Shown here: piece by piece, positions 6,378 to 64,000 of the stretch
How the letters are laid out: each line of letters opens with the position of its first letter
How positions within the stretch are numbered: the stretch's first letter is position 1
Assembly (NCBI GenBank): GCA_039621445.1
Contig: CP154954.1
Coordinates: forward strand, 12,952,716-13,016,715
Direction: 5' to 3'
DNA: 64,000 nucleotides
DNA from: Euglena gracilis
Lineage: Eukaryota
Translations under genes and position numbers: made by a program
The notes under the pieces: model-generated
The model's database searches: none
Seen by the model: only the letters and a program-made list of their open reading frames with translations
Told to the model about the DNA's origin: nothing

Positions 6378-6555
6378 CCCCCCCCCATGCCCAATGAATG
6401 CCATTGCCCAATGAACAGGGGCTGTTCGGACCGTTTAGATCGTCACCATAATCCTTATCTACACAGAAATCGTACCCCGATGCCCAATGAACGCCCCCCT
6501 GTTCGAACCGTCTAGAATGTCACCTTAGTGTTCACTGGGCGTGGGGGGGGGGAGG
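6378..6555. mobile_element. MITE with C-run/GGAGG termini
   Basis: ccccccccatgcccaatgaa ... ttcactgggcgtggggggggggagg|ta. Same right terminus GGAGG|TA as 11786-11965. Confidence 0.55.
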
Positions 6556-7449: not shown

Positions 7450-7917
7450 TAGGGAATTTCTTAAGCCAGAGGGTCCCTACCCCCTCGGGGGGGGGGTCCA
7501 GCCAGCCAGCCAGCTCAAATCCAGCCAGCAGTCCAAATTTGGGCTGGGATCCCCCCACCCCGGGGGTCGACTGAAATAAAGTCGGGTCCAGCCCGGCCGG
7601 AGGCCGGGCCAGCCGGCCGCAGGCTGTCCAGCCAATTGGGCGGCCCAGTTCAACTATCCATGCATTTTTCCCCCTCATCAAAGCTTCCTCCATCGCAGCC
7701 CCCCAGCCTTGAGCTGGCTCTATCCATCAAATTGTCGAAAACGGGAAAACTTTGTTAGAAATTTTTGTTTTTAACCGACCCAGCACAGCCCAGACCCCTC
7801 CAGCCCCGGACCCCCCCCCCGGGGGGTCCAGCCAGCAGCTCATTTCCAGCCAGCAGCCTTTTTGCCAGCCGGAGGCTGGACCCCCCCCCCCCGGGGGGGT
7901 CCTTAAGAAATTCCCTG
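7450..7917. mobile_element. MITE, probably hAT-derived
   Basis: TIR (t)agggaatttcttaag / cttaagaaattccct(g); internal ccagc repeats; no clear TSD. Confidence 0.7.
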
Positions 7918-7946
7918 ATCTGCACAGCCCGGCAGAAGAAGCCCAA

Positions 7947-8048
7947 CCCTTGAAGGATAAAATTGTGTTTATGGGCGCAAATGCGCACCAACATGATTAT
8001 GTTGGTGCGCTCATTTGCGCTTATAAGCACAATTTTGTCTTTCAAGGG
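7947..8048 (+). repeat. ~100-nt fold-back palindrome
   Basis: Arm 7947-7994 pairs with 7999-8048 around a 4-nt loop, with one 2-nt bulge. Confidence 0.9.
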
Positions 8049-11785: not shown

Positions 11786-11965
11786 CCTCCCCCCCCTTGT
11801 CGTTGACACGGCGTGTCGTTGAAACATCCCCCGTGTCAACGACACTTTTCTGGAACACTACCTATTGAATCACAGTGACATTGACATGGCGTGTCGTTGA
11901 CACACCCCCCGTGTCAACGGCACTCTCCTGGAACATTGGCGTGTCAACGACAAGGGGGGGGGAGG
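11786..11965. mobile_element. MITE with ~25-bp TIRs
   Basis: cctcccccccccttgtcgttgacac / gtgtcaacgacaagggggggggagg. The paralogous site at 17340 (gttgaaagtagcagtttgact) lacks it. Confidence 0.8.
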
Positions 11966-28353: not shown

Positions 28354-28611
28354 CAGGCTTCTTTATAAGTCACCTGACCCCCCCCCCCGGGTGAGGGGGG
28401 ATGGGTGGGTGGATCCGGGCCGGACCCCCCTGGGGGGGGGTCCCGCGCCGGAGGCGCCGGGTATTCCTTTTCGGGGCGAAGCGCCAAAATTTTTTGAAAA
28501 TTGCCTTTAGCGGGCCCGATTTTGGGGGGGTCCCCCCCCAGGGGGGGGTCCCACACCACCCTGGGTGGGTGGGGGGGGACCCCCCCCCCGGCGGTCTTAA
28601 AAAGAAGCCTG
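28354..28611. mobile_element. hAT-type MITE, present in copy B and absent from copy C
   Basis: TIR caggcttctttataag / cttaaaaagaagcctg; 8-bp TSD gtggggaa (28346, 28612); single gtggggaa at paralog 57937. Confidence 0.95.
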
Positions 28612-29925
28612 GTGGGGAAGCTGCCACACCGCGTGCACCTCGTGCAGCACCGCATGCGCCGCATGGCGCACCGTGTGCACCATGTACATTTTTTCCAGAA
28701 ATTCTCTGCATGAAATTACTCACTTGATTTTGCCGTACTGAAGCTGGAAAAACTGTGCTGGCTGGATCCCTTGGACCCGGCTGGCACCCGAAAGCTGGCA
28801 AAAAGGCCCAAATACACCTGCCTTGGGTTTTTTCCCGGCCAGTTTATTGAGGTGGAAATTTAAATAACGACAAAAAAGGGAATTTGACAATTTTTTTTGG
28901 CCGTTATGGACCTCTTTTAATCTTTTTTTTTTTGGTTCTGGCCAGTTTCGCTGCCCTGTGAAGATTTTATTGACACTCACCCTCACCACTCCCACTCACT
29001 TTTTGGGGGAGTGTCAGCCATCCGAATGGCAGTGTTCGCTGGAAAAAACGGTGCTGGCTCGGACTCCCCGGCAGGGGTGGCGGCAGGGGGGGTCCAGGCT
29101 GAAGTCATCAAAAAGTCAAGTAACTGAATTCATCGAATATTCAAAATATTGTGTGTCAAAGAGTAAAAAGTATGGCATATTCTGTGACAAAAATTCCCAG
29201 CCTTGACGATGAAAAATGTATGACATTGTTACAAGTATCATTGTGTGGTTTTGAATCATGATTATTTTGTATTGGCATACCCTCCTGAACCTCCGGCCAA
29301 TTAAGTGCCGGCTGGAACACCAAATTCAGAATGAACCATGGAACTGTTAGGAGCCGTGTAAGGGACCACATATGCACAGTGGCCTGGGGCTGCTGAAGCT
29401 CTTGCAGTCCCATCACCGCCAGTTGGCCATCCAAGTCGGCAGAGCTTTTGCTGATAACTAAGGTTCATTTATTACCATTTGAACCAATTGCCATAGTTAA
29501 GGTGCATTTACTAATATTTGAACTCCAAGCCTCCAAGCCAATACACCTTTGTTGGGTTTTATACCAATTTTAAAAATATTTTATAATTATTCTATGTTCC
29601 ATTTTTTTTTTCATATTCTGGCTTTATGTGCAATAACGTGTTGTTGTTGTTGTTGTTGTTGTTGGTTTTTTCTGTCTTTTTTTGCTGCATTTGGCCAGGC
29701 AAAAATGCATTCCAACAACGTGTGAAGTGTTCCATGAGTCATTCCCAAGTTAAAGCGCGCCCACCTCACTGTTCCATACCGACAAAGGCTCTTCAAGGAC
29801 GAAAGGACATCCCCACCGACGTCACCGTTCATGTCCGTTAGCCCCGGCCTCCATTCCCTGGCTGATATGTCCCGCTGCAGGGTTCTCCTACAATGTAAAA
29901 GAGTGGTTATGAGTTTTTTTGTCGT

Positions 29926-29958
<33 letters not shown>

Positions 29959-30947
29959 GTGTGTGCTTGAGTGTGTCTGTCTGTATATTGACAAGCATAA
30001 ATAATTTGGGCGTCCAAAGTCGGGGGACCTAAATTCACTTGATATGAGAGGGTGAGTTCTTGCCAACAATATCAGAACAATAAGAACTCAGAACAATAAT
30101 AAAAATTGTACCGTGTGTTTGCCAAAAGCAGGCTGCTATTCCAGTATGACCCTGTGCTCGCCTTGCACACCCCACTCCCTCCAGCCCCGCCAGCTCGGAC
30201 AGCAGTGTTGGGACCCACGGTCCATTCGGCAGGAGCCCTCCGCTCACCCCGGCGGTGACCACGCCACCCGTTCTTCCACGGTGGTCGTGTGGCTCTGTTG
30301 ATTGCCACCGACTTCGCCTTATCATGAAAACCACACAACTGCCGATACTGGAATTCTTGTCCAGCTGAAGAGGTGGAAGGATTCTGAATTTGAGAAATGG
30401 AAAGGCAATGTAAAATAACCTTATTTCTTTTGTGCTTCCGAGAGTATACCGTAAAGTGCTTGGTGGAGGTCTTAAATGCATTTTTTTCTGAGGTAATAAA
30501 TGTTGCATAACAATTGGTTATTTACAATATTGCTTGTGGCAGTATACGTTTTCAGTAACGAGAAGCCTTGTCTTCTTTTCTTTCACACTGTCAAGTGTTT
30601 TTCCTACAGTTTTTTTTTTGAATATTTTTTTTAGGCTCTCAATCAGGTGTAAGGTTTTGTCACCAGGGTGCAATTGTGTGTGCAAAACAGATGCTATTGC
30701 CGAATTGTATGCCATGCCACAGATAGCCCCGCTTCTTGAGGAGCCTCCCCATTTCACTGCAAAACCCTCCGACGAGGGTTACCCCACTGCATCACAGACA
30801 CACAACCAGGTTTGTTTCTGTGACAATCATGTCCCGAATCGTACAGTGTCCCCTGGGAATCTCTCTCTCTCTCTCTCCTCTCTTCTCAATCGGTGTTGCT
30901 GGGGGTTGCCGACCATGTGTGGGTGCGTGTGTTGTCAGTCTGTTGTT

Positions 30948-31020
30948 GCGGTTTCGCCCCAGGCTGGCAGGTCGGGTATCGTCAGGGGTGACGACCCTGC
31001 CGACCCTCGTCCCCGACCGC
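30948..31020 (-). ncRNA. Type III hammerhead ribozyme (intact core)
   Basis: Minus strand reads GCGG-UC|GGGGACGA-[GGGUCGGCAGGG]-UCGUCACCC-CUGACGA-U-ACCCG-[ACCUGCCAGCC]-UGGGGC-GAAA-CCGC. It has the CUGANGA and GAAA boxes, a GUC site and three stems. The base of stem II is imperfect. Confidence 0.85.
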
Positions 31021-31300
31021 TCTTGTATGTGTGGTGCAGACCGTTAAAAACGAGCTCTGCGCCACCCTCCCAGGGGGGGGGGGTCGGGGGGCTGAAAAAA
31101 ATAGCCCCCGGAAAACAAGGCAGCGCAGGACGGAAAAATGGCTCCGCTACCTACGGGGCACCCCCGGGAACAGCACCATTTGGGGAGGGCTAGTCAAGGC
31201 CCTTTTGGTGCGGAGAAAGACAAAATTGCCGAAAAATACGGACAGTACCCGAAGGCGAGAGCGTGATCGGTGTGGTGGGCGTGTGTTGTCAGTCCATGTT

Positions 31301-31373
31301 GCGGTTTCGCCCCAAGCGGGCAGGTGGGGCATCGTTACGGGTGAAGACCCTGCCAACCCTCGTCCCCAACCGC
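31301..31373 (-). ncRNA. Type III hammerhead ribozyme, degenerate core
   Basis: Same scaffold with perfect stem II GCCCC/GGGGC and a GUU site, but the core reads GUAACGA. Confidence 0.7.
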
Positions 31374-31470
31374 TCTTGTCTGGGTGTTGTCAGCCTGGGT
31401 GTGTTGGTTGCTGGATGGCTGGCTGGACTCCGAGGGTGGGGTCCCCTCCGGCTTTTAGGAAACCCTTGCA

Positions 31471-31519
31471 TACCCCAGTACCCCAGTACCCCAGTACCCC
31501 AGTACCCCAGTACCCCAGT
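31471..31519. repeat. (TACCCCAG)6 octamer repeat (also 61581-61629)
   Basis: Direct reading. Confidence 0.95.
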
Positions 31520-34500
31520 GACACTGTTCATTCATTCGTTTTGTTTGAGAAGTTGTAGTTGGTCCGTTTACAATTTCGGTGCCGTTCCACCCAGCAGGAT
31601 GGACAGCGAAGCGGCCTGCTGCTGATAGCCAGTCTCCCCATTCCCTCGGTGCCCATGCCACGCCTCTGCCAATCGCGACCCTTTGCTTTGTTCATGACCC
31701 ATATTCGTTCAACTGTCCCTGGTTTGAAGCCAAGAAAATTCTTCAATGTCTTTTCAGAGGAGCCTTGGAAGCACAATCCAGTCATTGTTTTTCTGCTTTT
31801 CAAGTTGTATTTGCCGTCTTCCAGCATCCCCCCAACCAGCAGTTTCTTATTTTGGCTTGCTGGATCCCCGGATTCTGAAACAGCCAGAGAATCAGCAATT
31901 CATCAATGGCTAGTTCATTTTGACAAACAATCAGAAACATGTTTGTAGAAGCGTTTTTCTTGTGGCCAACCAACCCACGACCCCCACACTCAAGAGAAGT
32001 TTGGCCAGCTATTTTTTTTGTTTCTAACGTCTTTTTACAACGAGTTGCATAGTCGTCAGGGCATTTCTTTTTCGTGTGTCGTAAATGTTATGGCGTAATG
32101 TACACCATTTTTTTTTCTCAAAAAGGAGTTTAAAGTCAATTCCTTCAGTATTATTTTTAGGTTTGCTTGGAAACCAATTTGCAAAAATTTTGTCATGTGG
32201 ATACCAGGGACTGCGCCAACGGACCCCGTGCCATATGCTGACGACCCATCCCAGCACCTTCCTCTCGGCCTGAGAATGGAACGCCAAGTAAAAACCCTGT
32301 GTTATCAGTGGGGTTTGTCACCAAAGACATTGGCTGAGCAATGTATAATTTAATAAGGGACAATCAAAAAAGGTTGGGCAATGGATGCTTTCCCACCCCA
32401 TTTGAAATGGTACATCTGATATACAAAAGGCTTTGGGTCAATATATTATATTTTTTTGCATGCAGCTGTTCTTCGTTTTCACATTGCACACTGTTCCCAT
32501 TCACAAACCTTAAACAATTTACACTGAAAACAGGAAAAAAGGTAGCTGTGCATTTCATGAGGCAAACGAAAGAACAAGCAGCATGTTTTCCACAATTTCA
32601 GCCGAAGGGATGGATTGCGCAAATGCGTTACACTGACCATGTGCACATTTGCACACACCATCCATTTGTGTACAGACCCCGAGGCAGGTAAAAGCGAAAA
32701 CGTTCATCAAAAATTCCAGGGGAGAAGCAGGAGAGAAACAATGGGTGTAGGGTGTGTGTAGGGGGGAGGGTTCCGGGACTGTCGTGCATACCAGGGATTT
32801 TGTGTCGTGCAGAAATAAAACAGCCAAAAAAAAAGAAATTCGGCCAAAGCTGTGGAGTGACAGCCCCAAAAAAAGAGAATTCGCTCAGATCTCTCGCAGT
32901 CATGATCCCCCTCGATCCAATTTCTCAAAGTTCTGGAATTCCTTGCGAAGAAATAAAATTCCGTTAGTGTATGTGTTTGCGCACACCAACCAAAAGAAGT
33001 TTATTTGTGAGTTATGCCGTCCAAGTCAGTGAAAAAAAGTGTACTCCTGGCATTTCACCCAGTTGTCAGTTCCAGGTTAAATCAATTTCAATTCAAAATC
33101 AGTTTCAATCAATTTCAGTCAGTTTGGCACCCACCCACCCACTGTCGGAAAGGGCTGTTATGGCCAATATGGCTTTGGCCTTTATATTCCAGTGGTTGGC
33201 CATTCCCATGTTTTCCCTCCACCGCTTTTCCACATCACGGCCTCGGTAGCCATACGGCCACCGTGCAGGCCATATTTTTTTTTTAGGTCACCCCTCCTGC
33301 TACAAGTTCACATGTGCTGCTTCTCTTTTCCAATCACTCACATTGTCCATCACCCTTTCTTTCTTATCTCCCCCCATTCTCTTTCTGACTTCTGTTTCTG
33401 ATTCTTTCTTTTTTATATTTTTTTGAATTATTTTAATGCCGGAAAAAAATAGAAAAACAACGTAAAAAAAATAAAAAACACAAAAAAAAAAAAACGTAAA
33501 CAACAAAAAAAAAAAAAAAAAAAAAAAGTCAGGGGGATTGGAAAATTGCGATTCTTTTTGGAAGAGCATTTGGAACGCCCCTCGCACAATCTCCCATCAA
33601 CAACTATCCCAGATGATTCTGGGCCTGTTTCATTGGAACTTGGTGCTCCAGATTGGCGGATGTGTTGCGAGTGTGTTATTTGGGCAGCCAGACAGACAGG
33701 CAGACAAAGACAGAAAGAGTGAGAGGGAGGGGATAGGTGGATAGGGGATAGGTGGGTCTGCCAGGGCTTTCGGGAATCCCCAAAACAAACCCCAATGGGT
33801 AATGGGCGGTGGGTGGGGTGGTCGATCCCTAGGGGGGGGGCTGCACAGGCAGGTGGGATGGTCGACCAGATAGGTGGTCGACAACCCACCCATCCAAGCC
33901 CGCAGAGAAAATTCTGACCTTAAAACCAGTATTATGGGAAGGCCTTGCAGGTATGGGGGGGGGGGCACAAGGCTCTTGGGGTCCCCTGCTGGAATGCGGG
34001 GTTTCGGCTATTTTTGGCACGAAAGACCGACTTTTTCTAACCCCCGAAATGTGGGGACCTGCTGGGAGAAACCCTGGGTCGGTGCGCCTGGCAGGGGGCA
34101 TGGGTACCTTCCCCTTGTCTCTGAAAAAATACCTGATTTATATGCAAGAAAGGGAGGCAGACAGAGACAGATATTGGTTGTTTCATGCATTGCATTTCAT
34201 TTTTATAATTTCAATGTAGTTATCCTCTGACACAAATTGACCAAATATTCCGGTACCTGGGGCATGTCATTTTCCAAACCTTTTTTTGCACCGTTGCTTT
34301 TTGACATTCGGGCAGTCACCGTGAAGAATCTCGATGTCTGCTGGGTGGGAGAGAAAAAGGAAGGTCTCCCCGCCCTGTTGCCATCACTCAGCGATTGTCG
34401 CAAAGTCCATTTTCAGTCCAGAGGATAGTTGAGAAGAACGGATAGCTCCGGTTGCCACAGTATTTTTTTTATATTTAAGTTAAAACAGGCGCAATGAACC

Positions 34501-51400: not shown

Positions 51401-51961
51401 CGCTCTTTTCTGTTTTTCACATTTTTGGGCCGTTTTGGGGGGGTGTTTGCCCAAACTCCCCTTTTACGGCCATAAATTTATAAAATCGTTCATTTATCAA
51501 ATGACTGAAAACAGACATAAACGTGCTCAAAATTTTCAGTTCACATCAGCGCCTAAAATTTTTGAGCACAAAAGTGTGGGGAAGCGGGCGGGGGCGGGCA
51601 GCCGGTCGACCCAGGGCCGGAGGCGGGCGGCGGCGGAGGGTTGGAAGAGCCAAGAGCCGTCCCGCCCTGGCCCACGTAGTACCCATTCACCACTCCGCGG
51701 CCATGCCGCGGGAGATCATGGAGCTGCAGGTGGACGCGGTGGTGGTGGAGATGCTGGACGGACTGAGCGACGCGGACGTGTACCCGGAGCAGCTGCGGGC
51801 GGCTGTGGAGCAGGGGGGTCCCGTTCGTGGCGACGGGAAGGCGTTCGCCATCGGGGTGCTGCAGCAGGCGCTGGTGAAGACCATGGACGTCCCGGAGGAC
51901 CTTCGCCGGGTGGACGTGACGCTGCACCATCCGGTCAAGGCCGCTGCCGACCGCACTTACC

Positions 51962-52202
51962 CAGGGGGGGGGAAATTATGTGGTCCGCATTATTCCGCAT
52001 TATTCCGCATTTTTCCGCATTTCCGCATTATTCCGCATTATTCCGCATTTTTCCGCATTTTTCCGCATATTTTCCGCATTTTTTTTGTAAATTTTCCGCA
52101 TTTTTCCGCATTTTCGCATTTGACCGCATTTTTTCCGCATTTTTCCGCATTTTGCCGCATTTTTCCGCATAATTTCCGCATTATCCCGCATTTTCCGCAT
52201 TT
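51962..52202. repeat. (ttccgcat)n degenerate array with CAGGGG start, likely a truncated hAT MITE inside the transposase
   Basis: About 20 copies of ccgcat spaced by T/A runs. Confidence 0.8.
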
Positions 52203-53219
52203 CAACCATGCCAACAGAAATGTATTTGTTTAGTCTCCAAAGCTGGTTGCTGTTTGTCTCTGCGGAGCACATTCTTAAATCTCTGTGGGTTAATGCCCAT
52301 TGGTTTCTTTGTGTGCCTCACAAATTGCACGGCATAGGCAGTTTGATGAAGTCTGACCGCTCTTTTGAAGGGCAAGGATGGATGGACGTTGTATGTTTCC
52401 AGAAAGGGTGGATTTATTTCCTTAAGGACCGCCCCCCTTTCGGCCAAAGGGCCGGCCAAGGGTCAGGCTGGGACTTGAACGGGGGCAAAATTTTAACAGT
52501 CAATAAAACACAGTTTTCGATGATTTGGGTGGATGGGCGATGGTTCAAGGGTGCCAGGAATCAATTTTTTTCCTGATGTCGACCTGTTCTCGCTGAAAAA
52601 TGCCAAAAATTCTTGCCCATTTTATTGTATATTTTTCACTGAGTGTGCTGGGACAGCAGAGTTTTTTTTTTATTTGCTTAAGGACCGCCCTGATGTTCAT
52701 GCATGGTTTTCACATACCATTGTTGCCCCACTCGCTTCTTTAATCGATGATTTGTTTGCCACATATTCTTTGCTGAAATGTCCCGCTCATGCTGCCAGGC
52801 GCCGTCGTTGGGTCGCTCACCTCAAGGCGCACCTGCATGCGGTGACATTGCCACCGCAAGTTGTGTGCACCCGATGGAACGCCTGGCGTGACATGGTTTC
52901 TGGTTGCGGAAAAGCAGAAGTCATGGTTGACCGCGCTTTGTGGCATCTAGACAACTTTCAATTGTGGGGCACGTTTCTTGCAGACGAAGCAAAGAAAATG
53001 CCGTGGAAGCCCAAGGAGTCAGAAAAGGGTAAGCAGAAATCCAAGGAGATCCCCCCGTTGTTGCATCGGGTTGCAAAGTCACAGGAAACCCATGGGAAGG
53101 GCTTGTTATTGCGGCTGGTTTTCATTTCAGACCATGGGGAGCCTTTGGATATTTGTTTGAATTGTGCGCAGGCTGACCGTCCTGTAGCTTGTTATTTGTA
53201 TGACTATTTGATGAACCTC

Positions 53220-53293
53220 AACCAAGCTTTTGCTCAATCACGTTGTTACAATGGTTTTTTTGACATAATCTTTTTGAGCAATCGCTTTTCATC
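53220..53293 (+). other. Candidate non-conventional (non GT-AG) intron, 74 nt
   Basis: tcaa direct repeat; stem aagc..ttgctcaa / ttgagcaa..gctt; C|A at both junctions. Removal joins the two ORFs as YLMNLKALWDSTISSAQFSPRLEEQL. Confidence 0.65.
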
Positions 53294-53370
53294 AAGGCGC
53301 TTTGGGACAGCACAATTTCATCTGCGCAGTTTTCACCCCGCTTGGAAGAGCAACTGACCCTTCTTTCATC

Positions 53371-53406
53371 GTTCAGGACCCTTTTTTTCAAAAGGGTCCT
53401 AGTTCA
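53371..53406 (+). other. Candidate non-conventional intron, 36 nt
   Basis: CAG at +4..+6 and CTA at -8..-6; 11-bp stem aggaccctttt / aaaagggtcct. In-frame removal gives LLSSVQAQFLRD. Confidence 0.55.
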
Positions 53407-54120
53407 GGTGCAAGCCCAGTTTCTGCGTGATATGTTCATCAGAGTTTTGAAATCGTTGCAGGACGGTTTGAATGTTCGCTTTGAGAAAAGCAAGGAACAA
53501 ATTGAGTTTTATCGTCAACTTCGTGTGCTCAACCCAAATAATTTGCCTCTTATGTCATCAGCTCCCACAGATTACTCAGCGTTGCGTTTGGATGGATGTG
53601 ATGAAGATTTCATACAATATTTGCAATGCACAAAAAGGGATATTGACGGCCCAGAGGAGTTAATTGAATGGTGGAAGACACACCGGACATCTCTTTTTCG
53701 TGAACGTGTTTTGTTTCTGATTTCCTCCCCGGTCGCCACTGCAAGTGTGGAAAGGTTTTTTTCCATTTGCGGACAGCTGGATGCCGATCAGTGGGCTTTG
53801 TCACATAATGCACGGAGGTTGGAATTCATGCTTCAATTTAATGGTGATTTGTCTGGGCGTTTCACCTCCCTCTGTGTGGGTTTCTGTGTAAACAAACAGG
53901 GCACTTTTTACATGGAAACCCGCACACCCACCCTGTTCTAAAATCAAATGTGAGTGTTGCATTGCACCCTGTGAGCTTTATTGTAAATCCAGAGAAGATG
54001 TTGCTGTTTTTTTTAATGTCTCAAGAATATAAGGGCTCAGTTGTTGTCAAATGTGGTCATGGAGTCAATCAGACAAACATAATTGAGCCAAGGGGTACAT
54101 TGTGTGATTGACAAGACCTC

Positions 54121-54841
54121 CTAGGCGGAAAACCGTGCACTTGCCGTGCGGAGCATCATCGTCACGCCAACCGAACTGACGGGGAACAGAGTAGGCACCC
54201 TGAACCCAGCGCGGTGAAGTTGCGGTTGTAGCTGGACTGGGCGGGGTCCGTGCCCTACCGCAGCCAGCAGAAGTTGTCTAGCCACGGCACACACTGGTGG
54301 CCGTCCAACGCCCGCAGCACCGCCTCCCGGGCCTTCCGGGCCCGCTCCCGCACCAGCTCCTCGGTGGGGCCCACCTGCCCGGCGGGGCGCAGCAGCCAGC
54401 GAGTGGCGTGGGGCAAGTCCTGCAGCGTCTGCTGCGCCGGAGCGGGGGCGCTGCTCCGGCTCCCCCGGAGCAGGAGCAGCGCTGCTCCGGCTCTGCTGGA
54501 GCCGGAGCAGCGCATGACCACCTCGCCGGCATGACCACCTCGCCGTCGCAGCGTCCGCCACAGCGCCAGCAGTCCGTCCGTGAACCGGGCCATCCACATC
54601 GGCCGTTCTGAGGGGGGCCGGTTGTACTCCCGCCAGACCTCCCTCAGGCTGCGACGGGATCGGCGGTTGTCCCTGACGGCCAGACGACCCGTATCCACCA
54701 GGTTGATGGCTCCCTGGTGACCCCGGTGAAGGGCGTCCTCCAGGATCGCCCAGCCGTCAGCCGGGGGGTGGGGGGGGCACCGGCCAGGTACTCCCGCAGT
54801 TGCTCCGGCTGCAATACAAGCGTCTCAGAGGTGGCCGCCAT
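54121..54841 (-). pseudogene. Decayed GC-rich ORF, unknown (possibly transposon-related) protein
   Basis: MAATSETLVLQ..(frameshift in C run)..PADGWAILEDALHRGHQGAINLVDTG..EAVLRALDGHQCVPWLDNFCWLR*GTDPAQSSYNRNFTAL. GC-rich third codon positions, one stop, and a 17-bp tandem duplication at 54512-54545. Confidence 0.55.
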
Positions 54842-57800
54842 TTCTTTTCAGGGTCTGAGATCGTAAAAATTTTCAAGCCTATTGTACACGTTCAAGAATG
54901 TGGGTGAGTGAATGGACAAAGACCACTCAGTGTATATAGATGCGGCAGTGTTTCGCTTGCCCGACAGCCCATCATCGTGTTTAAATAAGAACATCGTATT
55001 GTACGGCCACTTCAAGACCAGCGTTCGAATCTTTACGTGGGAATCCGCCCACAACTACATTCAGTTTGATTCAAACCAAACGTCATGGACATAGACCATT
55101 ACTCACTGTATTGTAAATTATTTCTACGCGGGTTTCCTCACACTGGTGAATCACACATGATTTGTCCTTCCTTATTAAAGGAAATCAGTCTTATTCTCAA
55201 GTTGGGCGGGTTCCCGTGTATATCATGGAATACTGGTGTTCAGAATGCTTAAATTCAAAGCCGGTGGGTGCAACAGGACCCAGAGTGGTTCGTACGGCGC
55301 AATCCTGAGCGCAATTACAGGTAAGACTGCCCTCCAAAACCACAGGATTTGGGATTTTGTCGCAATTCAGGGTGTTTAGTGGTACAAGTGGACGTTACAA
55401 TTCTCGCGATTTGTCCTCGCTCGCTAACGGGATGTACCGCTGCGACGTGACCTCCAGGAAAGCCCCGTATTCTGAAGGGATGTGCTGCGACTTGTGCGGA
55501 AAACCGCACAAGCTGCAGCACCAGGTCGTGGAAAGTGACTGCTTTTGGGTGGTGTTCGGGGAGCAACGGCCAGCCCTACGGATCTGTCTCGCGCACCTGT
55601 CAGGGTTCGTAAACCAGCGGTGTACCACCAACCACCCTGAGCCGCAAAAGGGTCCCAGGTAACCGTGGTGGGGAGGGGTGTATGGCACGACATCGTGCGG
55701 CCCAGACGGGCGTATGTTCCGGGTCCCTCCGGTGGCCCGGAGCCACCCCCCTCGGCGGAACTGCTACCAGCTTCCGCTTCACTTCTCCTCCGTCACGCCA
55801 TCCACAGAAAAGCGAGACAGGGACCGGTACGGACGACAACGCCGCGTACCGCGGGTATCCTGAGAGGGTACCCATCCATTCAGGGTTCGGTCAAAAAAAA
55901 GTAGGCAAGTCACCGCACCGGCGGGAACCAGTGGCGTTGCCCGCTGGGGTGGGCGGTCCTAGGGAGCTCGGCCACAAGAGGCCGTTACAGCCACTTGCCC
56001 AACCTACCTCCCTGAAAATCGCACTTGGGCCGTTCAACTTTTGCGGAACCACTGTTGGTGGTCACGTCGGCGGTTACACCAAATGAAGGCCTCGCGATCC
56101 AGATCCTGTACAAAAGCGAAGGGGGGGGGTGGCATCGGATCCGTACAGAGGAGCGCTTCACCGCTCATCGCTGGTATGTTGTACGCGGAAACCCGCACAC
56201 AACGTCCCCATCCTGAGACCACACCCACGCCCCAACCTCGCTCCCTACTCCTCTCCCTCAACAACACACACACGCCTGTCCGCTCCTCACACCCTTAAAA
56301 CCGTCCCCTACACATTCTGGTCGCAACTACTTTTGTACCACCAAACATCCAGAACGCGGAACACACACGACACGCTTGGGCAGGTCTGGGCAGCCTGTCC
56401 TGGTGGTGCGGGGAGGTCAAAGGACCACCCGGGCTCCTCACTGTCTTTTGTGTAGTCAGCACCCAAACCGTGTGTGCGGATTCTGCCCTCGTCCTCTTAC
56501 ACACACCGGACCAATTAGAACCTTCCAATTGGAAACAGATGCCACATCACCGGACCGTAGGCCCCACCCCACTCAAAACCACCCATCACATCCATACCAC
56601 CCCACCCATCACATCCATACCACCCCAATTATTTTCTCCAAAATCCCTCAATTGCTGCCCCGGCAGGGTGAAGGGGTTGGGCAGCGTCAACTGGAGGTCA
56701 CCTCACATTCTAGGGTAGGGTTTTGGGGACCGGTTGGGCAGGCACCCCTGTCCGGTGCCCGGTCTTGTTTTCTTTACCCTTTTTGCAAAAACCCACCCGA
56801 CCCTGGGTACCCCGGGCTACCCCCCTCGGGTGGTGTGCCTGCTATGGGCAGGCACCTTATGGCACCCACCCCCACCCCCCCCTGTCGGTAAAAAAAAACA
56901 ACCTCACAAGCACTTAAAGGTTCGCAAGCACTTTTGTAGTTTATGGCCAATTTCATGCCACCATCCGAGGTGTGTGCCTCTCCCGTGCACCCATAGTGCC
57001 AGTCGGTGCCCGCCAGCTGAGAAACAATGAAGAAAACCTTGTGATCCCTGCACCATTGTGTCGTGCAATGAATCACATCATCAAAAGTTGTTCAGTTTTG
57101 GGGCTAACGGAATGTTGTTTTTGACGTATTATTGTTTTTCTGTTGGGTTTTTTAATTTGGCAGCCCATTTTGCTCACTCATTTGTTGTTGTCCAGTGGTC
57201 ACCATTGTCGAGCAAATATGATGAAACAAAACAGTTGCTTTCTGAAGCACATAGCAATGCTCTGGCTGGGAGATGGCTGCACAGGCAGCTATCTCAAATG
57301 AAACGTGTCCCTACAAACCTGCTCCCTCCTATCGAATGATAGACTTTTTAAATACTCTTTGGCCATGGAAAAACGATTTAACCTCAACCCACACTTGGAC
57401 GGCATTTGCAACATTCCATCCGCCCCCACCCCCACGTTTTCCCAGGCAAGCCATCCTCCCAACAAAATGCTCTCCTCTCTGTTGCTGCCCTGCGGTGCTG
57501 ATGTGCGGGTTGAGTGGACGGGCTCCAGAGCGGCTCGGACGGCGTGCAGGCGATTGCCGTGTTTAACCGAAGGTTGGGGTGGTATTAGCCTTCCCTGGGT
57601 GGGTATGCTTTTTATGGTTGCATTGGATTGCATACAATTTGGAAATATAGGACAAAATAGTACGCCGGGTCGTCGACCATTGTTTTTGTATGGGTCTGCC
57701 GCACGCCATCGTCAAATGCTTCCACCAGACAGTGATTTCCAGAAACAAATTCATATGCTCGGGCCAACAATCAGCGATTTTTTCTTCATTACTCGTCTTT

Positions 57801-58999
57801 TTTTCCCCTGGAGATTTCATTCTTGAGGGGGTTTGTGGTCGTTGGGTTATAGAGGCATCGTTGTTGCTATTTACCATTGGCCCAGTCGCCCTCTCAGTGC
57901 CAACGAGGGCCGATTTTGCCGATACCCGTAGGGCTGGTGGGGAAGCTTGGGAATGCGGTTGTCCAGGAATCGGTTCCCGCACCCTCAATCATGAACTCCT
58001 TGGGGCCAAAGGGAATATGAAAATGAATGAAAATGGATTTGTGCGGCACAGGAAAAAATGACAGATGGGTGACACATGGCAACCCACTGGGTATTGGCAA
58101 CAGACGGTGCAGGAAGGCAGGAGAGGCATCCCCCACAGGAGACATTTCCTGTGCATCCACATGATGTACATTGCAAAATATTTAATAATTTCGAAATAGG
58201 AACACTCTGTCAGAGTCAGGGGCAGGTGCTTTTTTAGTCTTCCCCCCCCCAGGGGAGAGGGGGGCAGAGTGGGCCAGGGGCCAGGGGGTTCCCCCAGGGG
58301 GGGGGTCCAGCTCAGAGGCTGGAAAATTTGGGCTGGCTAGAAAAAGACTCCTGGCTGACGCCCCCCCCCCCAGGGGGTCCTGGACTGGAGCTGGGCGCGT
58401 GCACCTCGTGCAGCACCGCATGCGCCGCATGGCGCACCGTGTGCACCATGTACATTTTTTTCCAGAAATTCTCTGCATGAAATTACTCAGTTGATTTTGC
58501 CGTGCTGAAGCTGGAAAAACTGTGCTGGCTGGATCCCTTGGACCCGGCTGGCACCCGAAAGCTGGCAAAAAGGCCCAAATACACCTGTCTTGGGTTTTTT
58601 TCCGGCCAGTTTATTGAGGTGTGAATTTAAATAACGACAAAAAAGGGAATTTGACATTCTTTTTGGCCATTATGGACCTCTTTTAATCATTTTTTTTGGT
58701 TCTGGCCGGTTTTGCTGCCCTGTGAAGATTTTATTGACACTCACTCACTCTTTGGGGGGGGGGTGTCAGCCATCCGAATGGCAGTTGTTCGCTTGAAAAA
58801 ACGGTGCTGGCTCGGACTCCCCGGCAGGGGTGGGGGCAGGGGGGTCCATTCCCAGCCTTGACGATGAAAAATGTATGACATTGTTACAAGTATCATTGTG
58901 TGGTTTTGAATCATGATTATTTTGGATTGGCATACCCTCCTGAACCTCCGGCCAATTACGTGCCGGCTGGAACACCAAATTCAGAATGAACCATGGAAC

Positions 59000-59108
59000 C
59001 AGGCTTCTTTTTAAGTCAGCAGCCCCCCCTCCCCCCCCCCGGGGGGGGAGGGGGGTGGGTGGGTCCGTGCCGGACCCCCCGGGGGGGGGGGTCCCGCGCA
59101 GGAGACGC
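59000..59108. mobile_element. Truncated copy of the 28354 MITE family, copy C only
   Basis: Starts caggcttctttttaagtca; absent at paralog 29345. Confidence 0.7.
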
Positions 59109-61056
59109 TCGTGTAAGGGACCACATATGCACAGTGGCCTGGGGCTGCTGAAGCTCTTGCAGTCCCATCACCGCCAGTTGGCCATCCAAGTCGGCAGAGC
59201 TCTTGCTGATAACTAAGGTTCATTTATTACCATTTGAACCAATTGCCATAGTTAAGGTGCATTTACTAATATTCGAACTCCAAGCCTCCAAGCCAATACA
59301 CCTTTGTTGGGTTTTATACCAATTTTAAAAATGTTTTATATTTGTTCTATGTTCCATTTTTTTCACATTCTGGCTTTATGTGCAATAACATAACTCCTCC
59401 CTCCCGGTTTCTGATGATTCTAGGTCCAGTCCATCTTCCCTGACCTTTTGGATCCTTTTTGCCAGGGCTCCTAGTTTCAAAGGTACCAACTCCTTCCACA
59501 TTGGTTGACCAGTTTGACTGAGCCCAGTGTGTGTGATTGCGTATTTTTGCAACTTTTGGTCCACCGCCCTTGCGTGACGAAAAACTTTGAGCATCTTCCC
59601 ACTTGTTCGTTTTGTGTTGTTGTTGTTGTTGTTGGTTTTTCCTGTCTTTTTTTGCTGCATTTGGCCAGGCAAAAATGCATTCCAACAACGTGTGAAGTGT
59701 TCCATGGGTCATTCCCAAGTTAAAGCGCGCCCACCTCACTGCTCCATACCAGCAAAGGCTCTTCAAGGACGAAAGGACATCCCCACCGACGTCACCGTTC
59801 ATGTCTGTTAGCCCCGGCCTCCATTCCCTGGCTGATATGTCCCGCTGCAGGGTTCTCCTGTAATGTAAAAGAGTGGTTATGAGTTTTTTTGTCATTGTTG
59901 TGTGTGTGTGTGTGTGCTTGAGTGTGTCTGTCTGTATATTGACAAGCATAAATAATTTGGGCGTCCAAAGTCGGGGGACAGGGCGCTGTAAGTTGGGTAG
60001 GATGTAAGTTTTTGGTGTGTAATTTTGGACAGCAACATATTATGCAAGCTGTTTATGAGTTGCACCGAATGTTTATTCTCACATGGGGCAGGGGATTGGT
60101 TAGGTTCCGGTTCCGGGTTCCCCCCATTGGTATTTTTCCCTCCTAAATTCGCTTGATATGAGAGGGAGTTCTTGCCAACAATATCAGAACAATAAGAACT
60201 CAGAACAATAATAAAAATTGTACCGTGTGTTTGTCAAAAGCAGGCTGCTATTCCAGTGTGACCCTGTCCTTGCCTTGCACACCCCACTCCCTCCAGCCCC
60301 GCCAGCTCGGACAGCAGTGTTGGGACCCACGGTCCATTCGGCAGGAGCCCTCCGCTCACCCCGGCGGTGACTACGCCACCCGTTCTTCCACGGTGGTCGT
60401 GTGGCTCTGTTGATTGCCACCGACTTCGCCTTATCATGAAAACCACACAACTGCCGATACTGGAATTCTTGTCCAGCTGAAGAGGTGGAAGGTTTCTGAA
60501 TTTTAGAAATGGAAAGGCAATGTAAAATAACCGTATTGCTTTAGTGCTTCCGAGAGTATACCGTAAAGTGCTTGGTGGAGGTCTTAAATGCATTTTTTTC
60601 TGAGGTAATAAATGTTGCATAACAATTGGTTATTTACAATATTGCTTGTGGCAGTATACGTTTTCAGTAAAGAGAAGCCTTGTCTTCTTTTCTTGCACAC
60701 TGTCAAGTGTTTTTCCTACAGTTTTTTTTGAATATTTTTTTTAGGCTCTCAATCAGGTGTAAGGTTTTGTCACCACGGTGCAATTGTGTGTGCAAAACAG
60801 ATGCTATTGCCGAATTGTATGCCATGCCACAGATAGCCCCGCTTCTTGAGGAGCCTCCCCATTTCACTGCAAAACCCTCCGACGAGGGTTACCCCACTGC
60901 ATCACAAGACAACCAGGTTTGTTTCTGTGACAATCATGTCTTGAATCGTACAGTGTCCCCTGGGAATCTCTCTCTCTCTCTCTCCTCTCTCTTCTGAATC
61001 GGTGTTGCTGGGGGTTGCCGACCATGTGTGGGTGCGTGTGTTGTCAGTCTATTGTT

Positions 61057-61129
61057 GCGGTTTCGCCCCAGGCTGGCAGGTCGGGTATCGTCAGGGGTGA
61101 CGACCCTGCCGACCCTCGTCCCCGACCGC
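61057..61129 (-). ncRNA. Type III hammerhead ribozyme (intact core), paralog of 30948-31020
   Basis: Identical by eye to 30948-31020. Confidence 0.85.
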
Positions 61130-61410
61130 TCTTGTATGTGTGGTGCAGACCGTTAAAAACGAGCTCTGCGCCACCCTCCCAGGGGGCGGGGTCGGGGGGC
61201 TGAAAAAAAAATGGCCCCCAGAAAACAAGGCAGCGCGGGACTGAAAAATGGCTCCGCTACCTACGGGGCACCCCCCGGAACAGCACCATTTGGGGAGGGC
61301 TAGTCAAGGCCCTTTTGGTGCGGAGAAAGGCAAAATTGCCGAAAAATACGGACAGTACCCGAAGGCGAGAGCGTGATCGGTGTGGTGGGCGTGTGTTGTC
61401 AGTCCATGTT

Positions 61411-61483
61411 GCGGTTTCGCCCCAAGCGGGCAGGTGGGGCATCGTTACGGGTGAAGACCCTGCCAACCCTCGTCCCCAACCGC
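61411..61483 (-). ncRNA. Type III hammerhead ribozyme, degenerate core, paralog of 31301-31373
   Basis: Identical by eye to 31301-31373. Confidence 0.7.
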
Positions 61484-64000
61484 TCTTGTCTGGGTGTTGT
61501 CAGCCTGGGTGGGTTGGTTGCTGGATGGCTGGCTGGACTCCGAGGGTGGGGTCCCCTCCGTCTTTTAGAAAACCCTTGCATACCCCAGTACCCCAGTACC
61601 CCAATACCCCAGTACCCCAGTACCCCAGTGGCACTGTTCATTCATTCGTTTTGTTTGAGAAGTTGTAGTTGGTCCGTTTACAATTTCGGTGCCGTTCCAC
61701 CCAGCAGGATGGACAGCGAAGCCACCTGCTGCTGATAGCCAGTCTCCCCATTCCCTCGGTGCCCATGCCACGCCTCTGCCAATCGCGACCCTTTGCTTTG
61801 TTCATGACCCGTATTCGTTCAACTGTCCCTGGTTTGAAGCCAAGAAAATTATTCAATGTCTTTTCAGAGGAGCCTTGGAAGCACAATCCAGTCATTTTTT
61901 TTTCTGCTTTTCAAGTTGTATTTGCCGTCTTCCAGCAACCCCCCAACCAGCAGTTTCTTATTTTGGCTTGCTGGATCCCCGGATTCTGAAACAGCCAGAG
62001 AATCAGCAATTCATCAAGCGTTTTTATTGTGGCCAACCAACCCACGACCCCCACACTCAAGAGAAGTTTGGCCAGCTATTTTTTTTGTTTCTAACGTCTT
62101 TCTACAACGAGTTGCATGGTCGTCAGGGCATTTCTTTTTGTAAGTGTGTGTCGTAAATGTTATGGCGTAATGTACACCACTTTTTTTCTCAAAAAGGAGT
62201 TTGAAGTCAATTCCTTCAGTATTATTTTTAGGTTTGCTTGGAAACCAATTTGCAAAAATTTTGTCATGTTGATACCAGGGACTGCGCCAACGGACCCCGT
62301 GCCATATGCTGACGACACATCCCAGCACCTTCCTCTCGGCCTGAGAATGGAACGCCAAGTAAAAACCCTTGTGTTATCAGTGGGGTTTGTCACCAAAGAC
62401 ATTGGCTGAGCAATGTATAATTTAATAAGGGACAATCAAAAAAGGCTTTGGGTGATATACAAAAGGCTTTGGGTCAATATTTCAACCTCATTGTGCAAAG
62501 TGCATAACCCCCCAGGAGCACCAGGAAAAAACAGCGCACATGCCCTTGCGGGGGGGGGGGGTAAGCAAAAAATGACTCAGAAAAAATTGCTGTTAAGGAA
62601 TTTTCTTTTGTCGGTGCGAATGCTCGCAATGTTTTTCTACGACCATCCTGTGTGTCCGCTCTATGTGCAATTTTGTATGTTTTATCTCCTTCACCAATCA
62701 TTTTCATGAAAATGATGTAAAAACAGAGCTATATTATATTTTTTTTTGCATGCAGCTGTTCTTCGTTTTCACATTGCACACTGTTCCCATTCACAAACCT
62801 TAAACAATTTACACTGAAAACAGGAAAAAAGGTAGCTGTACATTTCATGAGGCAAACGAAAGAACAAGCAGCATGTTTTCCACAATTTCAGCCGAAGGGA
62901 TGGATTGCGCAAATGCGTTACACTGACCATGTGCATATTTGCACACACCATCCATTTGTGTACAGACCCCGAGGCAGGTAAAAGCAAAAACGTTCATCAA
63001 AAATTCCAGGGAGAAGCAGGAGAGAAACAATGGGTGTAGGGTGTGTGTAGGGGGGAGGGTTCCGGGACTGTCGTGCATATCAGGGATTTTGTGTCGTGCA
63101 GAAATAAAAAAGCCAAAAAAAGAAATTCGGCCAAAGTTGTGGAGTGACAGCCCCAAAAAAAGAGAATTCGCTCAGATCTCTCGCACTCGTGAACCCCCTC
63201 GATCCAATTTCTCAAAGTTCTTGACTTCCTTGCGAAGAAATAAAATTCCGGACGTGTATGTGTTTGCGCACACCAAACAAAAGAAGTTTATTTGTGAGTT
63301 ATGCCGTCCAAGTCAGTGAAAAAAGTGTGCTCCTGGCATTTCATTCAGTTTCAGTTCCAGGTTAAATCAATTTCAATTCAAAATCAGTTTCAATCAATTT
63401 CAGTCAGTTTGGCACCCACCCACCCACTGTCGGAAAGGGCTGTTGGGGCCAATATGGCTTTGGTCTTTACATTCCATTGGTCGGCCATTCCCATGTTTTC
63501 CCTCCACCGCGTGTCCAGATCACAGCCTCGGTAGCCATATAGCCACCGTGCAGGCCATGTTTGCCGCCTTTTTTTTTAGGTCACCCCTCCTGCTACAAGT
63601 TCACATGTGCTGCTTCTCTTTTCCAGTCACTCCCATTGTCCATCACCCTTTCTTATCTCCCCCAATTCTCTTTCTGGATTCTGTTTCTGATTCTTTCTTT
63701 TTTATATTTATATTTATTTGAATTATTTTAATGCCAGAAAATAGAACAACGTCAGTGGGATGTGGGGAAAATTGCGATTCTTTTTGGAAGAGCATTTGGA
63801 AGGCCCCTCACACATGCTCCCATCAACAACTATCCCAGATGATTCTGGGCCTGTTCCACTGGAACTTGGTGCTCCAGATTGGCGGATGTGTTGCAAGTGT
63901 GTTATTTGGGCAGCCAGACAGACAGGCAGACAAATAAACCGAGACAGAAAGAGTGAGAGGGAGGGGTGGGATAGGTGGGTCTGGGGCTTTCGGGAATCCC

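What the first reader, a model, noticed from the sequence alone, without database searches (positions are those of the whole stretch)
52340..53941. hAT transposase split by a series of tiny stem-loop, non-GT-AG intron-like inserts
Seen: hairpin segments with short direct repeats at 53220-53293 (74 nt, repairs the frame break), 53371-53406 (36 nt), ~52890-52928 (39 nt, 11-bp stem catggtttctg/cagaagtcatg; removal gives TRWNAWRDRALWH), ~52354-52416 (10-bp stem) and ~53866-53930 (19-bp stem before the stop). None has GT-AG ends. The first two pair +5 with -7 and have mostly Y|R junctions. Established: euglenid non-conventional introns have this geometry (CAG +4..+6 with CTG -8..-6), and their splicing machinery is unresolved. 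Inference: a DNA transposon whose expression depends on, and could spread, non-conventional introns, some of them very short.
Basis: partly seen in the sequence, partly recalled or inferred. Interest (0 to 1): 0.75.

Follow-up and report, generated by a model that had tools for sequence, protein, structure and literature searches.

The report
Broken Euglena hAT transposon with hairpin inserts
This is a truncated, dead copy of a highly amplified hAT DNA transposon in a Euglena-type genome, interrupted by short hairpin insertions and a nested repeat that show no sign of being spliced out as introns.

Summary
The hairpins and the frame break are in the sequence as described. The gene is a hAT transposase remnant. 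A profile of its relatives hits Hermes transposase at E 1.5e-5, and Euglena gracilis transcript peptides are 95-97% identical to it.

Against related proteins, three of the five segments are real insertions: 39 nt in frame (52890-52928), 74 nt frame-breaking (53229-53302), and 55 nt splitting the TGA stop (53875-53929). The 36-nt palindrome encodes residues that close relatives keep. The fifth hairpin (52354-52416) is no better than shuffles. It abuts a 281-nt copy of an ultra-abundant ~256-nt repeat that some DNA copies lack.

No insert fits the experimentally defined Euglena non-conventional intron code. Three RNA runs show no splice joints and keep the 74-nt and 36-nt segments. That RNA depth simply tracks DNA copy number, so it is a weak test. 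The copy lacks the N-terminal half, terminal inverted repeats and target-site duplication.

Best reading: a decayed non-autonomous fragment carrying DNA-level insertions (confidence 0.55). The main rival (0.25) is that the 74-nt segment, and perhaps the 39-nt one, is a non-consensus non-conventional intron.

The parts
52223..52354 (+). Coding block 1 of the hAT transposase remnant (frame 2): ...WFLCVPHKLHGIGSLMKS. The copy begins here; the N-terminal part is absent.
   Evidence: tblastn: P0007 residues 1-35 and P0008 residues 263-288 align here. tblastn of P0008 and P0017 against the whole window finds no N-terminal match. The block is open, 132 nt.
52355..52742 (+). First interruption, 388 nt where P0007 has 7 residues. 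It holds the nested repeat plus about 86 nt of extra sequence, and the frame changes from 2 to 0.
   Evidence: P0007 colinearity. Fold z -1.71, with 11 of 200 shuffles as good.
52411..52691 (+). Nested 281-nt copy (about 1.08 units) of an ultra-abundant ~256-nt repeat. It starts and ends with the same ~21-nt motif and is flanked by a 3-nt repeat, gat.
   Evidence: DNA word depth is 1.1-2.1 million here against about 500 in the flanks. One DNA contig joins 52410 to 52692 (skips 281, side 53, both 3). Joints that go back from 52667-52670 to 52412-52415 show tandem arrays.
52743..52889 (+). Coding block 2 (frame 0): IDDLFATYS...ARRRRW...TRWNAWR.
   Evidence: Aligns to P0007 residues 43-91 and P0017 from residue 252. 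Open, 147 nt.
52890..52928 (+). Insert A: 39 nt, in frame, no stop codon (DMVSGCGKAEVMV). It has an 11-bp stem with two G.U pairs and is flanked by direct repeats gac / atggtt, so its position can slide.
   Evidence: Absent from P0007 (TRWGSWRD|AADWY). P0008 has about 15 nt between the conserved arms plus a frame change. The P0002 ORF starts at its 3' end. Fold z -1.45. RNA depth is 0 here.
52929..53228 (+). Coding block 3 (frame 0): DRALWHLDNF...ACYLYDYLMNLNQA. At 52992 the abundant copies diverge upstream, marking the junction of a deletion derivative.
   Evidence: P0070 and P0071 read ...LLRMW|KKMPW. The DNA loose end before 52992 and the depth step from 544 to 8328 agree.
53229..53302 (+). 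Insert B: 74 nt, frame-breaking, with a 12-of-14 bp stem (53224-53237 / 53274-53287). It can slide by 1 nt.
   Evidence: P0005 and P0011 become colinear with the window only after exactly 74 nt are removed. P0070 reads through it. Abundant DNA contigs span its 3' edge (variant 53299, 35 nt from the contig end, depth 10904). RNA depth inside it is 7.7 and 4.3, against 10.2 and 4.8 in the flanks. Fold z -2.51.
53303..53872 (+). Coding block 4 (frame 2): WDSTISSAQFSPRLEE...VERFFS...FNGDLSGRFTSL. It includes the hAT C-terminal dimerisation region with the catalytic-E motif.
   Evidence: Pfam PF05699, E 0.0048. The family profile hits Hermes at E 1.5e-5 and aligns VERFFS with SERTFS. P0072 is identical at 156 of 164 residues.
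53371..53406 (+). It is in-frame coding sequence (FRTLFFKRVLVQ) and a hotspot of deletion breakpoints.
   Evidence: P0008 has NRSLLRRHL here. P0017, P0002 and P0072 keep the 3' half. Six distant homologues lack about 13 residues. Two DNA joints end at 53382-53384, and DNA depth doubles downstream. Fold z about -6 on both strands.
53875..53929 (+). Insert E: a 55-nt hairpin (20-bp stem, + strand only) that splits the TGA stop used by relatives. The ORF therefore runs on to 53941.
   Evidence: Eleven RNA reads in run X24 leave the window after 53874 with ACCTGTTC..., which gives TGA. P0072 ends ...GRFTSL. DNA depth falls from about 44,000 to 236 after it. One DNA contig of depth 126 spans it exactly.

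Best explanation
Window 52223-53941 is a dead, non-autonomous fragment of a hAT-superfamily transposase gene. It belongs to a family heavily amplified in Euglena gracilis or a very close relative.

Four open coding blocks (1,149 nt) survive. DNA-level insertions interrupt them:
- a nested 281-nt copy of an ultra-abundant ~256-nt repeat, plus about 86 nt of extra sequence;
- an in-frame 39-nt hairpin;
- a frame-breaking 74-nt hairpin, shared with the amplified deletion-derivative subfamily;
- a 55-nt hairpin in the stop codon, carried by only a small minority of copies.

The 36-nt palindrome is ordinary coding sequence of this subfamily and doubles as a deletion hotspot.

Inferred steps:
- The family spread as Ds-like internal-deletion derivatives mobilised in trans.
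- The hairpin insertions are fold-back or template-switch repair scars, or small palindromic insertions. This fits a genome rich in short palindromes.
- They are not removed from RNA.
For: Identity and organism:
- hAT: Pfam PF05699 E 0.0048; family profile against Hermes E 1.5e-5.
- Organism: P0071 and P0072 carry Euglena gracilis transcript labels. P0071 is identical at 76 of 78 aligned residues and P0072 at 156 of 164.

It is a fragment:
- No N-terminal match anywhere in the window.
- No terminal inverted repeats or target-site duplication.

The family is amplified and full of deletions:
- DNA depth runs from 8e3 to 1.6e5 over 52981-53874, with steps at 52992 and about 53384.
- DNA joints run 53228>53382 and 52780>53384.
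- P0070 and P0071 diverge from the window upstream of 52992.

Nested repeat: an empty-site DNA contig exists (52410>52692).

Insert E is rare: depth is 126-236 against about 44,000, and the transcribed paralogue has TGA at that site.

Evidence against splicing:
- No RNA joints in 3 runs.
- B and C are retained at the same depth as their flanks.
- P0070 reads through B.

Intron code:
- Matches in the region are at chance level: 340 against 293+-61 in shuffles.
- None coincides with an insert.
- There are zero candidates at B and at E.

Other points:
- Hairpins are a genome-wide feature.
- Relatives are themselves degenerate. P0002's middle 44 residues match no frame of the window. P0007, P0017 and P0074 have internal deletions.
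Against: - Every defect is a discrete insert. The 1,149 nt of coding blocks contain no stop codon or frameshift.
- B is removed cleanly, by exactly 74 nt, with respect to two distant homologues. Its predicted fold brings both junctions together.
- B is shared by this copy and the abundant subfamily. Among the listed differences between them in ORF2, 8 of 10 are at third codon positions: 6 synonymous and 3 non-synonymous, with one more inside B. This hints at past coding constraint on B-bearing elements. It is weak (p about 0.05-0.1), and 51 further differences were not shown.
- The gene models P0008 and P0017 change frame or skip sequence at the same three sites as this copy: 52355-52742, A and B.
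- Peptide P0071 stops at ...LMNLNQ, 3 nt before B.
- The RNA test is weak. RNA depth follows DNA copy depth (Spearman 0.92 over 30 bins). Only about 5% of each run was read. Joints need at least 3 reads to be listed. Site A had no RNA coverage.
- By the paper's figures, 38.8% of annotated non-conventional introns in E. agilis do not fit the code (PMC12501133).
Confidence: 0.55

Rival explanations
1. The 74-nt segment, and possibly the 39-nt one and the ~86 nt around the nested repeat, are genuine euglenid non-conventional introns of the non-consensus class. They were inherited from a functional hAT transposase gene. This copy is a truncated descendant that still shows the exon-intron structure.
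For: - The host is a Euglena. There, 57% (E. gracilis, PMC11170887 Table 1) to 71.8% (E. agilis, PMC12501133) of introns are non-conventional, with minimum lengths of 30-36 nt.
- Removing exactly 74 nt makes the window colinear with P0005 and P0011.
- The inserts have discrete boundaries with short direct repeats, the 'slidable' feature of 84% of E. agilis introns.
- The coding blocks are otherwise intact.
- P0008 and P0017 are disrupted at the same three sites.
- B is shared across the family, with a hint of synonymous bias.
- The stems of A and E contain G.U pairs, and E is structured on the sense strand only.
Against: - No CDG/CH'G motif at B or E. At A only a 27-nt variant fits, with a pyrimidine at the exon start and no inward pairing.
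- The terminal 10-nt pairing energy of B is -0.4 to -2.2 kcal/mol, close to the median of random pairs.
- RNA reads and P0070 retain B.
- If each insert had the 61.2% chance of fitting the code, four misses in a row would occur about 2% of the time.
- P0008 and P0017 are gene models of unknown structure on short contigs.
Confidence: 0.25
2. The hairpin segments are copies of small mobile palindromic (MITE-like) elements that insert at the DNA level. They are the proposed raw material of non-conventional introns, caught here before, or without, becoming spliceable.
For: - Insert E is a recent insertion carried by a small minority of copies.
- Short perfect hairpins are about ten times enriched in the window.
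- The MITE origin of these introns is a published hypothesis (PMC11282704, passages read).
Against: - BLAST of 51900-54200 against the window finds no second copy of any insert.
- The shared 8-mer GGTTTCTG in A and E is not enriched: 5 matches against 3.8 expected.
- The stems of B and E extend 5 and 2 nt into flanking native sequence. This fits fold-back copying better than a self-contained element.
Confidence: 0.12
3. ORF1 and ORF2 are fused by programmed -1 ribosomal frameshifting in their 94-nt overlap, as in IS3-type transposases.
For: The frame-0 and frame-2 ORFs overlap at 53264-53357, and a hairpin lies nearby.
Against: The only frame-0 slippery heptamer (T TTT TTT at 53255) lies upstream of the frame-2 stop TGA at 53261-53263. 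A slip there terminates at once, and there is no heptamer inside the overlap. The product would also carry about 25 residues that homologues lack.
Confidence: 0.02

Closest known systems
hAT superfamily transposons and their internal-deletion derivatives (Ac/Ds type; Hermes as the structural reference)
   Same: - The C-terminal dimerisation region with the catalytic-E motif aligns to Hermes.
- The CxxH-like and TRW-type blocks are present.
- The family consists of nested deletion derivatives at very different copy numbers.
   Different: - It is very divergent. Only 69 proteins out of 1.8 billion representatives reach E 1e-3, and none of those named is a plant or animal hAT.
- This copy lacks termini, target-site duplication, the BED/DUF659 part and the first catalytic D.
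- That Ds elements arise by abortive gap repair with filler DNA is recalled from the maize literature and was not checked here.
Euglenid non-conventional introns (code N3-CDG...CH'G-N5-6|R; Nomura et al. 2025, PMC12501133)
   Same: - Non-GT-AG ends.
- Hairpin potential.
- Short flanking direct repeats.
- Lengths within the reported range of 30-36 nt upward.
- Same host genus.
   Different: - No CAG/CTG pair at the required distances.
- The stems extend outward or into exons rather than inward from the motif.
- No removal seen in RNA.
- The 36-nt case is coding.
Introner / MITE-derived introns (Micromonas, dinoflagellates; review PMC11282704)
   Same: Short insertions with inverted-repeat ends and small direct repeats inside coding sequence.
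   Different: No multi-copy family of the inserts was found in the window, and no splice sites are donated.

Membership tests
hAT superfamily transposase | C-terminal hAT dimerisation region with the catalytic E (ERxFS motif) | tested here: met
   PF05699 scores E 0.0048 and 17.1 bits, below the 21.4-bit cut-off. A profile of 18 relatives hits Hermes chains 4d1q and 2bw3 at E 1.5e-5 and aligns VERFFS to SERTFS.
hAT superfamily transposase | Complete DDE domain and an N-terminal DNA-binding part (BED/DUF659) | tested here: not met
   P0008 (550 aa) and P0017 (491 aa) match the window only from residues 238 and 252 onward. Nothing matches upstream anywhere in the 64 kb.
hAT superfamily transposase | Terminal inverted repeats and an 8-bp target-site duplication | tested here: not met
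   Comparing 51900-52300 with 53940-54250 gives only chance 6-10 nt matches.
Euglenid non-conventional intron | Borders other than GT/GC-AG | tested here: met
   Read directly from the sequence. No GT...AG pair of the right phase exists at B, and there is no AG at all in 52692-52742.
Euglenid non-conventional intron | CDG at +4..+6 paired with CH'G followed by 5-6 nt and a purine-starting exon (PMC12501133) | tested here: not met
   - B and E: 0 candidates.
- A: only 52897-52923 (27 nt, exon starts with T, 0 inward pairs).
- 52397-52697: the exon starts with C and there are 0 extra pairs.
- C: CAG at +4..+6, but the 3' side reads CTAG. All compliant pairs would delete conserved residues.
- Region-wide count is at chance.
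Euglenid non-conventional intron | Terminal base pairing that brings the intron ends together (the 10+10 nt test of PMC11170887) | tested here: inconclusive
   A -3.1, B -0.4 to -2.2, C -1.9 to -3.9, E -5.3 kcal/mol. Random pairs in the window have a median of -0.8 and a 10th percentile of -4.7, and 36% score zero.
Euglenid non-conventional intron | Absent from mature RNA | tested here: not met
   No RNA joints in 3 runs. B and C are covered like their flanks. The test is weak: depth is 1-10, RNA tracks DNA copy number, there is no coverage at A, and E is absent from the other copies' DNA.
Euglenid non-conventional intron | Excised as full-length circular RNA | not testable with these tools
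   This feature is taken from passages of PMC11282704. It needs RNase R treatment and divergent-primer RT-PCR.

The most novel reading that the evidence does not exclude
The 74-nt and 39-nt segments, and the ~86 nt around the nested repeat, are position-conserved, very short non-conventional introns of a class that does not use the CAG/CTG code. They would be carried by a hAT transposase gene across family members that are only about 45% identical. On this reading, a DNA transposon in Euglena both depends on the unidentified non-conventional splicing machinery and carries such introns around the genome.
Probability: 0.2. Interest if true: 0.65.

Novelty: new member of a known kind. Interest (0 to 1): 0.3.

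Why it matters
As it stands, this is an ordinary decayed transposon copy in a repeat-rich protist genome. Three things give it some value.

- It documents a very divergent, highly amplified hAT family in Euglena. The two literature searches I ran listed no paper on such a family, judged by titles and abstracts.
- It shows that short hairpin insertions arise at the DNA level inside coding sequence in this genome. The 55-nt one is a minority insertion.
- It supplies three compact natural sequences (39, 55 and 74 nt) that lack the published CAG/CTG code. These could be put straight into the existing EgGSL2 knock-in assay to ask whether a second, code-independent class of non-conventional introns exists.

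Tried and rejected
- No whole genome is held for this window.
- A protein-mode search of the phage collection with an unframed DNA reference failed and was dropped.
- No DNA of other copies could be fetched:
  - Metagenome contigs, twice;
  - Viral contigs;
  - Genome contigs.

  Each returned pattern matches only, with no relative confirmed by tblastn.
- The word-index protein search in 'longer' mode found nothing. A search with P0008 found only P0008 itself and P0017.
- Rfam found no family in the window at gathering score.
- Pfam scans of 10 flanking or other ORFs found nothing.
- My idea that P0002 reads the middle region in another frame of the window was tested and rejected. All three frames gave z of -0.7 or lower.
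- The 8-mer shared by inserts A and E is not enriched.
- Programmed -1 frameshifting was rejected.
- The earlier-findings index returned nothing in 4 look-ups.
- Supplementary datasets of PMC12501133, which list intron classes, were closed. They could show whether introns resembling B exist among the 38.8% that do not fit the code.
Full report
**What is in the sequence**

Between about 52.2 and 53.95 kb the + strand carries two long open frames: 52524-53357 (frame 0) and 53264-53941 (frame 2). Against 200 dinucleotide shuffles their fold z-scores are:

| Segment | z-score | Shuffles folding as well |
|---|---|---|
| 39-nt | -1.45 | 19 of 200 |
| 74-nt | -2.51 | 4 of 200 |
| 36-nt palindrome | -6.12 | 0 of 200 |
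| 52350-52420 | -1.71 | 11 of 200 |
| 3' hairpin, + strand | -3.92 | 1 of 200 |
| 3' hairpin, minus strand | -0.2 | 85 of 200 |

Perfect hairpins with stems of 10 bp or more and loops of 40 nt or less are frequent throughout the window. There are 66 stem/loop combinations at roughly 30 places, against 0-5 in 10 shuffles. Hairpins are therefore a property of this genome's repeats, not of this gene.

**What the gene is and whose genome it is**

- ORF2 gives a sub-threshold Pfam match to the hAT dimerisation region (E 0.0048, 17.1 bits, cut-off 21.4).
- An exhaustive phmmer search found 69 relatives at E 1e-3 or better: 30 at 1e-10 and 4 at 1e-30.
- A profile of 18 of these hits Hermes transposase structures at E 1.5e-5. 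The alignment runs across the catalytic-E motif, VERFFS against SERTFS.
- Most relatives are short ORFs from unnamed metagenome contigs. Two are 'Genlisea aurea' hypothetical proteins on 2.9 and 3.7 kb contigs, one labelled DUF659.
- The closest named relatives are two peptides labelled Euglena gracilis transcripts.
  - P0071 (EG_transcript_44702) is identical at 76 of 78 aligned residues.
  - P0072 (EG_transcript_169) is identical at 156 of 164.

The window is therefore from E. gracilis or a very close relative.

**The copy is a fragment**

- P0008 and P0017, the longest relatives, match the window only from their residues 238 and 252 onward. Nothing matches upstream in the 64 kb.
- A 10-nt microsatellite sits immediately 5' of the first matching block.
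- No terminal inverted repeats or target-site duplication were found.
- Four coding blocks remain open: 52223-52354, 52743-52889, 52929-53228 and 53303-53872, together 1,149 nt.

**Site by site, against homologues**

- **First interruption, 52355-52742.**
  - P0007 has 7 residues where the window has 388 nt.
  - Of these, 281 nt (52411-52691) are a copy of an extremely abundant repeat. DNA word depth is 1.1-2.1 million here, against about 500 beside it.
  - One DNA contig joins 52410 directly to 52692, so copies without the repeat exist.
  - Joints that go back from about 52668 to about 52413 show that the repeat also stands in tandem arrays with a unit of about 256 nt.
- **Insert A, 52890-52928.**
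  - It is 39 nt, in frame, with no stop codon.
  - P0007 lacks it (TRWGSWRD|AADWY).
  - P0008 has a stretch of similar size there with a frame change.
  - The P0002 ORF begins at its 3' end.
- **Insert B, 53229-53302 (slidable by 1 nt).** P0005 and P0011 are colinear with the window only if exactly 74 nt are removed:

  ```
  window: LMNLNQA | WDSTISSAQFSPR
  P0005:  LMHVQSD   WEDLLKTKQFSPR
  ```

  P0070, which is 96% identical, reads straight through B to the same stop codon.
- **The 36-nt palindrome.**
  - Six distant relatives (31-38% identical) lack about 13 residues here.
  - The closer P0008 has similar residues (NRSLLRRHL against FRTLFFKRVL).
  - P0017, P0002 and P0072 keep the 3' half.

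  In this subfamily it is coding sequence.
- **Insert E, 53875-53929.**
  - Eleven RNA reads of run X24 leave the window after 53874 and continue ACCTGTTC..., which completes a TGA stop.
  - P0072 ends ...GRFTSL at that point.
  - The window resumes with ACCCTGTTC after the hairpin.
  - DNA depth drops from about 44,000 to 236 beyond it.
  - One contig of depth 126 spans the window's own arrangement.

  E is thus a 55-nt insertion carried by a small minority of copies. The abundant copies lack it in their DNA.

**Family structure**

- DNA depth steps up at about 52992, where P0070, P0071 and a DNA loose end all diverge from the window (LLRMW|KKMPW). It steps up again at about 53384.
- Two DNA joints (53228>53382 and 52780>53384) and the start of P0072 share that right-hand breakpoint, inside the palindrome's T-run.

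This is the pattern of nested internal-deletion derivatives of a DNA transposon, with the palindrome as a fragile site.

**Test against the known intron code**

- The literature defines the target.
  - I read the abstract and all of Results of PMC12501133. It defines the splice-competent signature 5'-N3CDG...CH'GN5-6|R genetically. Single substitutions in CAG or CTG abolish splicing. The signature is present in 61.2% of annotated non-conventional introns of E. agilis.
  - I read the abstract and sections 6 and 10 of PMC11170887. For E. gracilis it reports CCAGG at +3..+7, CCTG at -9..-6, minimum lengths of 30-36 nt, and about 1% of such introns under 60 nt.
- A scan of 52200-53960 finds 340 code matches, against 293+-61 in shuffles. 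None lies at an insert.
- A targeted scan allowing spacers of 4-7 nt gives:
  - zero candidates at B and at E;
  - at A, only a 27-nt variant with a pyrimidine exon start and no inward pairing;
  - at the first interruption, a 301-nt in-frame candidate with a C exon start and no extra pairs.
- The terminal-pairing test of PMC11170887 gives B -0.4 to -2.2 kcal/mol. The random median is -0.8. A scores -3.1 and E -5.3, against a 10th percentile of -4.7.

**RNA**

- Three raw RNA runs with the same species label were laid at 90% likeness or better, with about 5% of each run read.
- No joints were listed anywhere in RNA.
- Summed depth in the two bins holding B is 7.7 and 4.3, against 10.2 and 4.8 beside them. 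The bin holding the palindrome is covered likewise. Site A has zero coverage.
- RNA depth follows DNA copy depth across 30 bins (Spearman 0.92), with a ratio of 3e-5 to 6e-4 over four orders of magnitude.

These reads may therefore be background transcription or DNA carry-over. They show retention in bulk RNA, not the fate of a true transposase mRNA.

**What still speaks for introns**

- All defects are discrete inserts, and the coding blocks are otherwise clean.
- B is excised exactly with respect to distant homologues, and its fold pairs the two junction regions.
- B is shared by this longer copy and the amplified derivative. Of the 10 listed differences between them in ORF2, 8 are at third codon positions: 6 synonymous, 3 non-synonymous and 1 inside B. 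This is weak (p about 0.05-0.1), and 51 further differences were not shown.
- P0008 and P0017 change frame or skip sequence at the same three sites. They are gene models of unknown exon structure, and they also drop conserved motifs.
- P0071 ends 3 nt before B.

I therefore keep a 0.25 rival that B, and perhaps A, is a non-consensus non-conventional intron.

**Other readings**

- Programmed -1 frameshifting is excluded. The only frame-0 slippery heptamer lies before the frame-2 stop codon.
- A MITE-like family of the inserts has no support in the window.

**Novelty**

- One search combined 'Euglena', 'transposase' and 'nonconventional intron'. It found 3 papers, of which 2 were listed.
- Another combined 'Euglena gracilis', 'hAT', 'transposable elements' and 'genome assembly'. 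It found 8 papers, of which 7 were listed.
- By title and abstract, none describes this family or transposon-borne non-conventional introns.
- The MITE origin of these introns is already a published hypothesis (passages of PMC11282704).

**Verdict**

The identification as a hAT element in a euglenid is right. The intron interpretation is not supported for the 36-nt, 52354-52416 and 55-nt segments. It remains unproven, and on balance disfavoured, for the 74-nt and 39-nt segments.

Noticed in passing
window 52411-52691: A ~256-nt repeat unit with DNA word depth above one million in a 2.3-Gb DNA run. It occurs both dispersed (here, 1.08 units inside the hAT copy, flanked by a gat repeat) and in head-to-tail arrays. 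It is also the most covered part of the stretch in all three RNA runs.
   Followed up: partly
window 51976-52200: An imperfect 10-nt microsatellite (TTCCGCATTT-like, about 20 units) directly 5' of the truncated hAT copy.
   Followed up: no
window ~26990-33280 and ~56600-63560: A segmental duplication about 30 kb apart at 94-98% identity over many 200-300 nt blocks.
   Followed up: no
whole window: Perfect short hairpins (stem of 10 bp or more, loop of 40 nt or less) at about 30 places, against 0-5 hits in shuffles. Several recur as families, for example TGTCGTTGACA at 11798-11952, TGTGGTTCACA at 1432-1490 and GCGCTGCTCCGGCTC at 54448-54513.
   Followed up: no
window 54188-54300: The GC-rich flank 3' of the hAT copy is itself a high-copy repeat (DNA depth 16,000-29,000) with a few RNA reads. 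Its long ORFs have no Pfam match.
   Followed up: no
proteins P0008, P0017 (not in the window): The only database-named full-length-like relatives are annotated as Genlisea aurea proteins on contigs of 2.9 and 3.7 kb. Given 44-56% identity to a Euglena element, they may be contaminant protist DNA in that plant assembly.
   Followed up: no
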